From IMG/VR virus record IMGVR_UViG_2706794670_000001: a stretch of DNA of 19,675 bases. One strand, 5' to 3'. This document shows positions 258-5,595 of this stretch, in pieces. The notes under the pieces were generated by a model, which was not told where the DNA came from, searched no databases, and saw only the letters and a list, made by a program, of their open reading frames with translations. The position numbers were made by a program, and so were the translations under genes. The stretch is from a virus (Duplodnaviria; Heunggongvirae; Uroviricota; Caudoviricetes). The first letter of the stretch is position 1. Each line of letters begins with the position of its first letter.

Positions 258-668
258 TTAGTGCGGAAATATTTGTGTAGTGTTCTGTATGTTCTCAGTA
301 AAGAGTAATGAATTATCAAAGGTATAGTAATACCTTTTGTTTTCGTGGATATTTGTAATCCATCTGAAAACCCCTGCTGTAGCAAGATTTTTCCTGTATT
401 CGTAAAATGATAACTCTCCTGATTTGAATCCTTTTAAGGTGGCTTCTATAAGGCATTTATTTTTTGAAAATCTTACATTTACAACCTTACCCTGTCCTTT
501 TATTAAAACCGTATTATCGTTTTCAAGAACAAGATGAATATTCTCTGTGGCTAAATAGTAAATGTAATGTGAGACATTGTGACGTTTTAGTTCAGAATAA
601 AACCAGTGATAGTTTAAATTATTTCGCACTTTATCGAATATTTGTTTAAAAATGGCAACCTGAGCCAT
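258..668 (-). CDS. hypothetical protein (136 aa), AT-rich cos-proximal moron; possibly YbcV-like (DUF1398), unverified
   Basis: Minus-strand ORF with stop at 258-260. The track starts it at 683 (141 aa), but the second in-frame ATG at 668 is preceded by GGAAGG about 7 nt upstream, whereas the first ATG has no Shine-Dalgarno, so I prefer 668. Coding region is roughly 30% GC against ~55% for the structural genes. No hydrophobic segment, so probably cytoplasmic. Family assignment is from memory only. Confidence 0.55.
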
Positions 669-725
669 TGTAGTACCTTCCATGTGATATGAGGGGGCGT
701 AGTCTGCACGATTATCTAAATTGCT

Positions 726-959
726 TCAATCTGGTCTAACCTGTTTTCTGAGCAATTCAGTAATGTCACTCTTTTCTTTGTTTGCTTCAGGCGAAACTCT
801 TTTTTCTGAGCACAGTCTCCGGCGGCAGGCTTCAATGACCCAGGCTGAGAAATTCCCGGACCCTTTTTGAACAAGAGCGATGTTAATTTGTTCAATCATT
901 TGGTTAGGAAAGCGGATGTTGCGGGTTGTTGTTCTGCGGGTTCTGTTCTTCGTTGACAT
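726..959 (-). CDS. small basic protein (77 aa) with ribbon-helix-helix-like N-terminus; resembles YlcI/DUF3950-type proteins found next to cos in lambdoid prophages
   Basis: Minus-strand ORF, ATG at 959-957, stop TGA at 728-726. The Arg/Thr-rich N-terminal tail followed by NIRFPNQMIEQINIALVQKG...FSAWVIEACRRRL has a strand-helix-helix pattern typical of Arc/MetJ/CopG folds. Lies ~200 bp left of cosN, upstream of the 136-aa ORF on the same strand. Confidence 0.6.
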   Translation of the reverse strand: MSTKNRTRRTTTRNIRFPNQMIEQINIALVQKGSGNFSAWVIEACRRRLCSEKRVSPEANKEKSDITELLRKQVRPD

Positions 960-1158
960 GAGGTTGCCCTGTATTCAGTGTCGCTGATTTGTATTGTCTG
1001 AAGTTGTTTTTACGTTAAGTTGATGCAGATCAATTAATACGATACCTGCGTCATAATTGATTATTTGACGTGGTTTGATGGCGTAGATGCACGTTGTGAC
1101 ATGTAGATGATAATTATTATCATTTTGCGGGTCCTTTCCGGCGATCCGACAGGTTACG

Positions 1159-1170
1159 GGGCGGAAGGCG
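1159..1170. other. cosN cohesive-end 12-mer (variant): GGGCGGAAGGCG
   Basis: The flanks ...CCGACAGGTTACG on the left and CGCGGGTTTTCGCTATTTATGA on the right match the lambda right-end and left-end sequences as I recall them. The 12 nt between them occupy the position of the lambda cohesive end. Confidence 0.6.

Positions 1171-1893: not shown

Positions 1894-5595
<3,702 letters not shown>

What the first reader, a model, noticed from the sequence alone, without database searches (positions are those of the whole stretch)
726..959. Small ribbon-helix-helix-like protein immediately left of cos
The 77-aa product has a very basic N-terminal tail (KNRTRRTTTRN) followed by a strand-helix-helix pattern (NIRFPNQ / MIEQINIALVQKG / FSAWVIEACRRRL) and an acidic/basic C-terminal tail. 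That layout is typical of Arc/MetJ/CopG-type DNA-binding repressors and antitoxins. From memory, small proteins with the NIRFPNQMIEQINIAL...FSAWVIEACRRRL signature are annotated as DUF3950 (YlcI-like) in many E. coli lambdoid prophages, always close to the terminase genes, and have no known function. Sitting next to cos, it could regulate the downstream AT-rich gene, or bind near cos.
Basis: partly seen in the sequence, partly recalled or inferred. Interest (0 to 1): 0.5.

Follow-up and report, generated by a model that had tools for sequence, protein, structure and literature searches.

The report
YlcI/YnfO small protein beside cos
This is a real, very common and already annotated small prophage gene (YlcI/YnfO, DUF3950) next to the lambda-type DNA-packaging site; it most likely encodes an Arc-like DNA-binding regulator, but what it does in the phage is still untested.

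Summary
The 77-aa ORF at 726-959 (minus strand) is real. It matches Pfam DUF3950 (E 2e-20) and NCBIfam YlcI_YnfO_N. Codon-position differences show purifying selection. The same region occurs in 4468 of 5426 complete E. coli genomes, annotated as a YlcI/YnfO family protein. Phage lambda has a 64-aa copy that its reference record does not annotate. No function is published.

The ribbon-helix-helix (RHH) reading is supported but not proven:
- AlphaFold gives an extended N-terminus and two helices at the predicted places.
- hhalign to the Arc family is weak (P 0.0014). Its register puts T12, N14 and R16 on Arc's DNA-contact residues.

The best functional evidence comes from relatives in phage satellites. 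There the gene faces the replication operon across three GTG-N6-CAC boxes. The box centres track the residues at exactly those strand positions.

"Always next to terminase" holds only for E. coli lambdoid phages. Other members lie in satellites, a conjugative element and cytochrome bd oxidase operons. The DUF1398 neighbour is not a conserved partner. A known Fur-binding site lies between the gene and cos.

Verdict: an ordinary, known family and a probable Arc-like regulator whose target here is unknown.

The parts
726..959 (-). CDS for a 77-aa YlcI/YnfO-family (DUF3950) protein. Residues 1-11 form a basic arm, about 12-17 the predicted beta-strand (T-R-N-I-R-F), 19-32 helix A and 37-50/54 helix B. 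From about residue 55 the tail is variable.
   Evidence: ORF and family; secondary structure; codon-position pattern; variable C-terminal tails
967..970 (-). AGGG ribosome-binding-site-like motif, 8-11 nt upstream of the ATG
   Evidence: read directly from the sequence; phage 434's record annotates an RBS at the equivalent place
795..812 (.). Mosaic joint inside the gene. To the right of it (N-terminal ~54 codons plus everything up to cos) the DNA is almost identical to lambda. To the left of it (C-terminal tail and beyond) the DNA is unrelated to lambda.
   Evidence: alignment; several distinct tail types among close homologues
975..1040 (-). Upstream block conserved in a diverged lambda-type cos region (L156/L157). 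It contains the 14-bp palindrome TTGATCTGCATCAA (1020-1033). It is a candidate promoter or auto-operator, untested.
   Evidence: footprint alignment; (single copy in the window, not significant alone); no consensus sigma-70 promoter found on this strand
1103..1127 (.). Fur-box-like palindrome (16/19 to GATAATGATAATCATTATC). It overlaps a plus-strand promoter-like site at 1096-1123 (GTGACA-16-TATCAT). It corresponds to the Fur site reported 'upstream of nohA/nohB' in E. coli K-12.
   Evidence: 16/19 here and in lambda, 17/19 in L156/L157; best of 100 shuffles 12-14; Chen et al. 2007, PMC2189734 (gel shift and earlier in vivo Fur titration)
1129..1170 (+). cosQ (GGGTCCT, 1129-1135) and the cosN overhang segment (1159-1170). 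These are context for 'immediately left of cos'.
   Evidence: alignment to lambda's ends; cosQ annotation in phage 434 and phi80 records
258..683 (-). Downstream same-strand gene: a DUF1398 protein (YdfO/YbcV-like, solved as PDB 2HH8). It is a neighbour, not an obligatory partner.
   Evidence: absent or separated in phage 434, YYZ-2008 and lambda

Best explanation
The gene encodes a small Arc-like ribbon-helix-helix protein that binds DNA as a dimer.

Proposed mechanism:
- The strand T12-R13-N14-I15-R16-F17 pairs with its twin to form a two-stranded ribbon that enters the major groove.
- T12, N14 and the invariant R16 face the bases; I15 and F17 pack on helices A and B.
- The basic arm (residues 3-11) holds the backbone.

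The gene is an autonomous, moron-like unit at the junction of the lysis and packaging modules. It is transcribed against the late operon, so it is probably made in the lysogen. It most likely acts as a transcriptional repressor or autoregulator.

What is shown: the gene is real, conserved and a family member; the secondary structure fits; in satellite relatives, operator-like boxes co-vary with the predicted recognition residues.

What is inferred: the dimer, DNA binding by this particular protein, and repression. Its target in the lambda-type context is unknown. The conserved palindrome TTGATCTGCATCAA in its own upstream region is the first candidate.
For: - Family and selection.
- AF2 gives an extended N-terminus, then helices at 19-32 and 37-54, with or without an alignment.
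- The Foldseek top list is nearly all RHH (NikR, MazE9, Arc, ParD2, NikA, YiiF, CopG, CdbA), at 2.2-3.8 A over 36-46 residues.
- hhalign against an alignment of real Arc homologues gives P 0.0014. It aligns N-I-R-F-P with Arc N-L-R-W-P, so T12, N14 and R16 fall on Arc Q9, N11 and R13. That these are Arc's base-contacting residues is from my own knowledge of the Arc-operator structure.
- In more than 40 satellite or ICE loci, the DUF3950 gene is the lone gene facing the replication operon, across about 200 bp that carry three GTG-N6-CAC boxes. The middle box abuts a TTGACG on the opposite strand and the proximal box follows a TATAGT.
- The box centres follow the residues at -3 and -1 before IRF: YKG with TTTAAA, TTKG with yAyAwA, KKG/KKN with TGCGCA, KKH with TGxACC, TKK with CGGCCA.
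- Same-signature pairs differ at 2.38 of 6 centre positions, different-signature pairs at 3.71. None of 5000 label permutations reaches this gap, and it holds within bands of overall relatedness.
- L004 versus L008, and L061 versus L072/L124, keep nearly the same leftward first ORF while signature and boxes change together.
- ylcI is transcribed in E. coli K-12 (convergent ybcW-ylcI overlap in RNA-seq; PMC12288877).
Against: - There are no Pfam RHH hits and no PDB sequence hits.
- The monomer model cannot show the strand pairing that defines the fold.
- The covariation comes from satellite relatives that are 36-50% identical. It could partly reflect a gene and its adjacent DNA being inherited as one block.
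- The lambda-type upstream region has no GTG-N6-CAC boxes. The five in the whole window match chance.
- The 13-nt inverted repeat at 1029-1061 is not conserved.
- No consensus promoter was found for the gene.
- Some members sit at the end of cytochrome bd oxidase operons. This does not obviously fit a mobile-element repressor.
Confidence: 0.55

Rival explanations
1. It is a packaging or cos accessory protein. It would bind near cosQ/cosN, or to terminase, to modulate cos cleavage, termination of packaging or end protection.
For: In E. coli lambdoid phages the gene always sits just upstream of the packaging module. This holds for two non-homologous terminase systems: Nu1/A and HNH-TerS-TerL. 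The DNA from the N-terminal domain to cos is one nearly invariant block shared with lambda. Two relatives carry a C-terminal extension resembling the HTH of Terminase_2 small subunits.
Against: The family also occurs where there is no cos or terminase nearby: in the regulatory region of satellites, in an ICE and in cytochrome bd operons. From established lambda knowledge (mine), packaging needs only terminase, IHF and cosQ/cosN/cosB. The gene is on the opposite strand to the late operon, so late transcription runs against it. In YYZ-2008 the upstream DNA is unrelated to lambda's.
Confidence: 0.1
2. It is the antitoxin-like or adaptor partner of the downstream DUF1398 protein. The RHH N-domain would autoregulate the pair and the variable C-tail would bind the partner.
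For: The two genes lie on the same strand 42 bp apart in this window and in Qin-type prophages. The layout of an RHH N-domain plus a variable tail resembles type II antitoxins, which dominate the structural hits.
Against: The pairing is not conserved. Phage 434 and YYZ-2008 have no DUF1398. Lambda has another gene on the opposite strand between the two. Satellites and chromosomal copies lack DUF1398. PADLOC gives no hit for either protein beyond noise.
Confidence: 0.05
3. It is a cross-talk factor between helper phage and satellites. As a paralogue of the satellite-borne DUF3950 regulators, it would form mixed dimers with them or compete for their operators, inducing or blocking satellites.
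For: The closest non-lambdoid relatives are the lone divergent gene in the regulatory region of PICI or cf-PICI-like satellites. For Gram-negative PICIs a global repressor has not been identified, and induction depends on an unknown helper function (Fillol-Salom et al. 2018, PMC6092414).
Against: In these scans every E. coli DUF3950 locus was a lambdoid-prophage copy except one variant that sits downstream of cytochrome bd oxidase genes. None was found in an E. coli PICI, so I cannot name a cognate partner in the same host. The recognition residues (TRN) differ from all satellite signatures seen. This idea is pure inference.
Confidence: 0.1
4. It is not a DNA binder at all. It would be a small helical protein that acts by protein-protein contact, for example as an inhibitor of a host or defence factor.
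For: All fold evidence is sub-threshold. The region between Rz and cos carries accessory genes: the neighbouring lambda gene lambdap79 is sensed by the Vulcan defence system (bioRxiv 10.64898/2026.09.04.749371).
Against: The invariant I-R-F-P strand motif, the basic arm and the operator covariation in relatives are hard to explain without DNA binding.
Confidence: 0.15

Closest known systems
YlcI (DLP12 prophage) and YnfO (Qin prophage) of E. coli K-12; Pfam PF13132 DUF3950; NCBIfam NF041551
   Same: It belongs to this family by curated HMM thresholds. Database clusters named YlcI/YnfO family protein (E. coli) are 96% identical over the full 77 aa. It has the same position between the lysis genes and the Nu1 homologue, and the Qin-like arrangement with DUF1398 directly downstream.
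   Different: Essentially nothing. It differs from lambda's and DLP12's 64-aa versions only in the C-terminal tail, which belongs to another mosaic module.
Arc and Mnt repressors of phage P22 (Pfam PF03869, ribbon-helix-helix)
   Same: Similar size. The motif N-[IL]-R-[FW]-P is followed by an amphipathic helix, a short turn and a second helix. The register places T12, N14 and R16 on Arc Q9, N11 and R13. Arc is among the Foldseek hits.
   Different: The profile similarity is weak (P 0.0014, probability 18%) and there is no Pfam Arc hit. Helix B carries a family-specific NFSAWV[IL][ED]AC motif with an invariant Cys. Arc lies in P22's immI region, not beside the packaging site.
RHH antitoxins of type II toxin-antitoxin systems (ParD, RelB, MazE, FitA, TacA/KacA)
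   Same: They are the best structural neighbours. They share the layout of an N-terminal RHH followed by a poorly ordered tail.
   Different: There is no conserved toxin partner and no sequence similarity.
Master repressors of phage satellites (Stl/Rpr of Gram-positive PICIs)
   Same: In satellite relatives the DUF3950 gene occupies the analogous place. It diverges from the excision/replication operon, with element-specific operator-like boxes over both promoters.
   Different: There is no homology, and Stl-type repressors are larger proteins (from my own knowledge). The window's gene is in a phage, not a satellite, and lacks this operator architecture.

Membership tests
DUF3950 / YlcI-YnfO family (Pfam PF13132, NCBIfam NF041551) | Score above the curated HMM thresholds | tested here: met
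   PF13132 72.8 bits against a cut-off of 25; NF041551 35.2 bits against 30. All 25 aligned relatives hit PF13132.
DUF3950 / YlcI-YnfO family (Pfam PF13132, NCBIfam NF041551) | Conserved core I-R-F-P ... N-F-S-A-W-V-[IL]-[ED]-A-C | tested here: met
   Present at residues 15-18 and 36-45. These columns are invariant or nearly invariant in alignments A2 and A3.
Ribbon-helix-helix superfamily (Arc/MetJ/CopG) | Strand-helix-helix topology of about 45 residues | tested here: met
   AF2 gives an extended segment up to residue 18, then helices at 19-32 and 37-50/54, in two independent runs. Confidence is only moderate (pLDDT 66.8 and 61.7).
Ribbon-helix-helix superfamily (Arc/MetJ/CopG) | Intertwined homodimer whose two N-terminal strands form an antiparallel ribbon | not testable with these tools
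   Only monomer prediction was available. No strand is formed in the monomer models, as expected either way.
Ribbon-helix-helix superfamily (Arc/MetJ/CopG) | Significant structural similarity to solved RHH proteins | tested here: inconclusive
Ribbon-helix-helix superfamily (Arc/MetJ/CopG) | Sequence or profile similarity to an established RHH family | tested here: inconclusive
   hhalign against the Arc alignment gives P 0.0014 and probability 17.8% in the correct register. CopG alone gives nothing. No Pfam RHH model is hit at E up to 10, apart from HicB_lk_antitox in 2 of 25 members. No PDB sequence is hit.
Ribbon-helix-helix superfamily (Arc/MetJ/CopG) | Base recognition by alternate residues of the N-terminal strand | tested here: inconclusive
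   Supported indirectly in satellite relatives: box centres track residues -3 and -1 before IRF. It was not tested for this protein, and no boxes of that type lie near it.
Type II toxin-antitoxin antitoxin | Conserved bicistronic pairing with a toxin gene | tested here: not met
   The downstream gene varies or is absent.
Phage packaging or cos-recognition proteins (small terminase-like) | Homology to a small-terminase DNA-binding domain, or obligatory linkage to cos or pac | tested here: not met
   No terminase family is hit. Linkage to the packaging module holds only in E. coli lambdoid phages. Two relatives are fused to a Terminase_2-like HTH (weak hit).

The most novel reading that the evidence does not exclude
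DUF3950 proteins are Arc-like repressors with element-specific operators, and they are the so far unidentified immunity repressors of Gram-negative PICI and cf-PICI satellites. The copy that lambdoid phages keep beside cos, including lambda's own unannotated ORF, would then be a paralogue through which helper phage and satellites, or iron status via the adjacent Fur site, communicate.
Probability: 0.12. Interest if true: 0.7.

Novelty: already known. Interest (0 to 1): 0.3.

Why it matters
The gene itself is routine: it is annotated in most E. coli genomes. Two things give it modest value.

First, it is one of the last conserved genes of lambda-like phages with no function, and lambda's reference record does not annotate it. 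A concrete model now makes it directly testable: an Arc-like dimer with T12, N14 and R16 as reading heads.

Second, its relatives sit at what looks like the genetic switch of many Gram-negative phage satellites. For those satellites the literature says a global repressor is unclear. If that link holds, the family would matter for understanding how satellites stay silent and how they are induced.

Tried and rejected
- **PDB by sequence.** A single-sequence search and a profile search found nothing.
- **Pfam at E up to 10 on 25 members.** No RHH family was hit.
- **PADLOC.** No defence-system hit.
- **hhalign to CopG alone.** Nothing.
- **Foldseek against afdb50.** The library was not available.
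- **Toxin-antitoxin idea with DUF1398.** Rejected because the pairing is not conserved.
- **13-nt inverted repeat at 1029-1061 as an operator.** Rejected because its left arm is not conserved in L156/L157.
- **Satellite-type GTG-N6-CAC boxes near the gene or enriched in the window.** One 5-of-6 match at 1081-1092, and five in the whole window, as chance predicts.
- **Sigma-70 promoter scan.** No promoter for the gene was found upstream of the ATG on the minus strand.
- **Distant comparators for the upstream region.** phi80, HK225 and mEp237 share only cosQ, so footprinting rests on L156/L157 alone.
- **First genome-contig scan, with alignment A2.** It failed for lack of a conserved stretch; a narrower alignment worked.
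- **Literature searches for DUF3950, YlcI and YnfO.** No functional study turned up.

Full report
**1. Observation**

The window is the lysis-to-packaging junction of a lambda-like phage or prophage. Nu1 lies at 1348-1893 (Phage_Nu1, E 2e-101) and the large terminase subunit A follows it. The sequence from 1129 to about 1290 aligns base for base with lambda's joined ends: cosQ at 1129-1135 and the cosN overhang at 1159-1170.

It has 77 codons and an AGGG 8-11 nt before the ATG. It matches three libraries:
- Pfam DUF3950: 72.8 bits against a cut-off of 25.
- NCBIfam YlcI_YnfO_N: 35.2 bits against a cut-off of 30.
- phrog_949, of unknown function.

Compared with diverged lambda-type copies, 17-25 differences fall on third codon positions and 2-7 on each of the other two positions. 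This frame is therefore under purifying selection.

**2. How common and how well known it is**

The region occurs in 4468 of 5426 complete E. coli genomes, with up to 13 copies per genome. RefSeq annotates it as "YlcI/YnfO family protein". Clusters 96% identical over the full length hold hundreds of member sequences.

Phage lambda has a 64-aa copy at about 48.1-48.3 kb on the minus strand. The reference records NC_001416 and J02459 do not annotate it; other lambda records call it hypothetical.

The literature held here contains no functional study. A 2024 review of uncharacterised E. coli genes lists ynfO (PMC11551758). An RNA-seq survey reports overlapping convergent transcription of ybcW and ylcI, so the DLP12 copy is transcribed (PMC12288877).

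Across 1.8 billion cluster representatives only 108 score E of 0.001 or better. Many of these are error-ridden copies of lambda control DNA. Real members are confined to Enterobacterales and Pasteurella.

**3. Anatomy**

The first ~54 codons and all DNA up to cos are almost identical to lambda. Similarity stops inside the gene, at about 795-812, so the C-terminal tail belongs to another mosaic module. Close homologues carry several unrelated tails.

The conserved part has three elements:
- a basic arm;
- the strand-like K/R-x-I-R-F-P;
- two helices, the second carrying NFSAWV[IL][ED]AC.

**4. Fold**

AlphaFold2 with a 25-sequence alignment gives pLDDT 66.8. The N-terminus is extended and helices lie at 19-32, 37-54 and 60-73. 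A single-sequence run on residues 1-53 gives the same first two helices.

Foldseek gives no E-value below 1.6. Its list is again almost entirely RHH: NikR, MazE9, Arc, ParD2, NikA, YiiF, CopG and CdbA. These superpose at 2.2-3.8 A over 36-46 residues.

Sequence methods are weaker. There are no PDB hits and no Pfam RHH model is matched. hhalign against it gives P 0.0014 and probability 18%.

The register is informative. N-I-R-F-P aligns with Arc's N-L-R-W-P, which puts T12, N14 and R16 on Arc Q9, N11 and R13. From my own knowledge of the Arc-operator complex, those are the residues that read the bases.

The fold assignment is therefore plausible and internally consistent, but it is not established.

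**5. Context across the family**

In E. coli lambdoid phages the gene always lies between the lysis cassette and the packaging genes, on the opposite strand. This holds with Nu1/A terminases and with the unrelated HNH-TerS-TerL system of Stx phages. There its start is only 41 bp from the HNH start.

The DUF1398 gene that follows it here (PDB 2HH8) is not a fixed partner:
- Phage 434 goes from bor straight to the DUF3950 gene.
- YYZ-2008 has no DUF1398.
- Lambda has lambdap79 on the other strand between the two genes.

Outside E. coli most members lie in 10-15 kb integrative elements with this layout: integrase, AlpA, sometimes AntA, then the DUF3950 gene alone on the other strand, then small ORFs, a primase and often capsid, protease, HNH and terminase genes. 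This is the layout of PICI and capsid-forming PICI satellites.

Other members lie in:
- an ICE, beside TraG, RadC and TraI;
- next to Mu-like head and minor-tail genes;
- the end of cytochrome bd oxidase operons in Rouxiella, Pantoea and an E. coli contig.

"Always beside terminase" is thus a property of one subfamily only.

**6. Evidence for DNA recognition**

In the satellite and ICE loci, about 200 bp separate the DUF3950 gene from the divergent operon. This region has a fixed architecture: a conserved hairpin in the leftward leader and three (sometimes four) 12-bp boxes of the form GTG-N6-CAC. The middle box is followed by GTCAA (TTGACG on the other strand). The proximal box follows a TATAGT.

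The outer triplets are constant, as is R16. The six central bases differ between elements and follow the residues at positions -3 and -1 before I-R-F:

| Residues before IRF | Box centre |
|---|---|
| YKG | TTTAAA |
| T-TKG | yAyAwA |
| A-TKG | TTGGGG |
| KKG / KKN | TGCGCA |
| KKH | TG(C/T/A)ACC |
| TKK | CGGCCA |
| QKK | GGGGTA / CACCCC |
| RKD | TCCGCA |

Among 28 non-redundant loci, pairs with the same signature differ at 2.38 of 6 central positions. Pairs with different signatures differ at 3.71. None of 5000 label permutations reaches this gap.

The gap persists within bands of relatedness of the rest of the protein: 1.6 against 3.9 when the remainder is at least 75% identical, and 2.1 against 3.55 when it is below 60%.

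In two cases the first gene of the leftward operon stays nearly identical while signature and boxes change together: L004 versus L008, and L061 versus L072/L124. The positions that co-vary are exactly those the Arc register predicts to face the DNA.

The caveat is that a gene and its adjacent DNA can move as one block, so this is strong correlation, not proof of binding.

**7. The lambda-type upstream region**

This region lacks the satellite architecture. No GTG-N6-CAC box lies near the gene, and the five in the whole window are what chance predicts.

A diverged lambda-type cos region (L156/L157) allows a footprint. Two blocks are conserved:
- a block at about 975-1040, containing the palindrome TTGATCTGCATCAA (1020-1033);
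- an AT-rich palindrome next to cosQ.

The 13-nt inverted repeat at 1029-1061 is not conserved.

The AT-rich palindrome matches the Fur consensus at 16/19 here and in lambda, and at 17/19 in L156/L157. The best match in 100 shuffles was 12-14. It is the Fur site already reported "upstream of nohA/nohB" in K-12, selected in vivo by Fur titration and confirmed by gel shift (Chen et al. 2007, PMC2189734). Those authors assigned it to the Nu1 homologue, and that paper does not mention ynfO or ylcI. It lies between the two divergent genes and overlaps a plus-strand promoter-like site (GTGACA-16-TATCAT, 1096-1123).

No consensus promoter for the DUF3950 gene itself was found.

**8. Interpretation**

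The best-supported reading is a small Arc-like dimeric DNA-binding regulator. In satellites it probably acts as the repressor or autoregulator of a divergent-promoter switch. In lambdoid phages it is kept as an autonomous gene antisense to the late operon.

For this window's protein, the target and the biological role are not known. I put 0.55 on [quoted passage not shown]. The rivals are weaker:
- a cos or packaging accessory: 0.1;
- an antitoxin-like partner of DUF1398: 0.05;
- helper-satellite cross-talk: 0.1;
- not a DNA binder at all: 0.15.

**9. Novelty and score**

The gene is a near-identical member of an annotated family, so the finding is already known as an object, and its function is unknown to everyone. 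Its two functional suggestions are untested and one is disfavoured.

Interest is 0.3. The added value is a concrete structural model, plus the link to satellite regulatory regions, where the literature states that a global repressor of Gram-negative PICIs is unclear (PMC6092414).

Noticed in passing
window 1159-1170: The 12-nt cosN overhang segment reads GGGCGGAAGGCG, where lambda and the 98.5%-identical phage PhiR49_1 have GGGCGGCGACCT. The flanks are identical. The exact variant with its flanks occurs in 14 IMG/VR contigs, so it is a natural cos allele and not an error.
   Followed up: partly
window 1103-1127 (overlapping the plus-strand promoter-like site at 1096-1123): There is a Fur-box-like palindrome (16/19) between the DUF3950 gene and cosQ, conserved in lambda and in a diverged cos region. 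It corresponds to the Fur site published as 'upstream of nohA/nohB' (gel shift, Chen et al. 2007), a paper that does not mention ynfO or ylcI. Which of the two divergent genes it controls is open.
   Followed up: partly
loci L004, L008, L009, L050-L079, L106-L152 (upstream of the DUF3950 genes): PICI or cf-PICI-like satellites and one ICE share a regulatory region with a conserved leader hairpin and three GTG-N6-CAC boxes. The box centres are element-specific and track two residues of the DUF3950 protein. This looks like an undescribed immunity switch, and the DUF3950 protein is a candidate for the missing repressor of Gram-negative PICIs.
   Followed up: partly
lambda NC_001416 / J02459, about 48109-48303 (minus strand); locus L001 2623-2817: Lambda's own 64-aa DUF3950 ORF has no feature in the reference records, although related RefSeq phages annotate it as a YlcI/YnfO family protein.
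   Followed up: yes
window 684-725 compared with locus L001 1967-2622: The window lacks lambdap79 (ybcW-like), which in lambda lies between DUF1398 and DUF3950. A 2026 preprint reports lambdap79 as the activator of the Vulcan NADase defence system. Escape phages lose it by recombination with the Qin prophage, which produces the arrangement seen here.
   Followed up: partly
loci L049, L074-L085, L089-L091: A chromosomal or plasmid subfamily of DUF3950 genes sits on the same strand just after cytochrome bd oxidase subunit II genes, or after cydDC-like ABC transporter genes in Pantoea. This recurs in several genera and I have no explanation for it.
   Followed up: partly
L008 4714-5103; protein P0213: Two family members carry a C-terminal extension resembling the helix-turn-helix of Terminase_2 small subunits (...AGYSxKTAxxKGSQLAK...). 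In L008 the ORF ends at a genuine stop codon. P0213 was seen only as a protein sequence.
   Followed up: partly
L009 (Pasteurella 'phage' Pmp7, OR544138) 4435-5109 and 4853-5032: The annotated 224-aa 'transcriptional repressor' CDS is antisense to a clear, unannotated 59-aa DUF3950 ORF and has an odd composition. It is probably a miscall.
   Followed up: partly
loci L013, L017-L048, L059, L066; many proteins: Pieces of lambda DNA appear in assemblies labelled as unrelated organisms (Streptomyces, Cohnella, Flavobacterium, Staphylococcus, a spider). Many are contigs of about 3.5 kb ending at the right cos end. They look like sequencing-control contamination, and their error-ridden translations inflate the family.
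   Followed up: no
window about 3150-3450: A masked stretch (N in the DNA, X in the translations) interrupts the large terminase gene A.
   Followed up: no
window 258-683: The DUF1398 protein (97% of its length matches PDB 2HH8, YdfO) falls in phrog_413, which is labelled 'head protein', and some records call it 'putative envelope protein'. Nothing seen here supports either label.
   Followed up: no
L004 6190-6300: Three tandem copies of a short hairpin unit (ctgaacta-ACCCGATAtcATCGGGGT-like) lie just downstream of the satellite DUF3950 gene. Their function is unknown.
   Followed up: no
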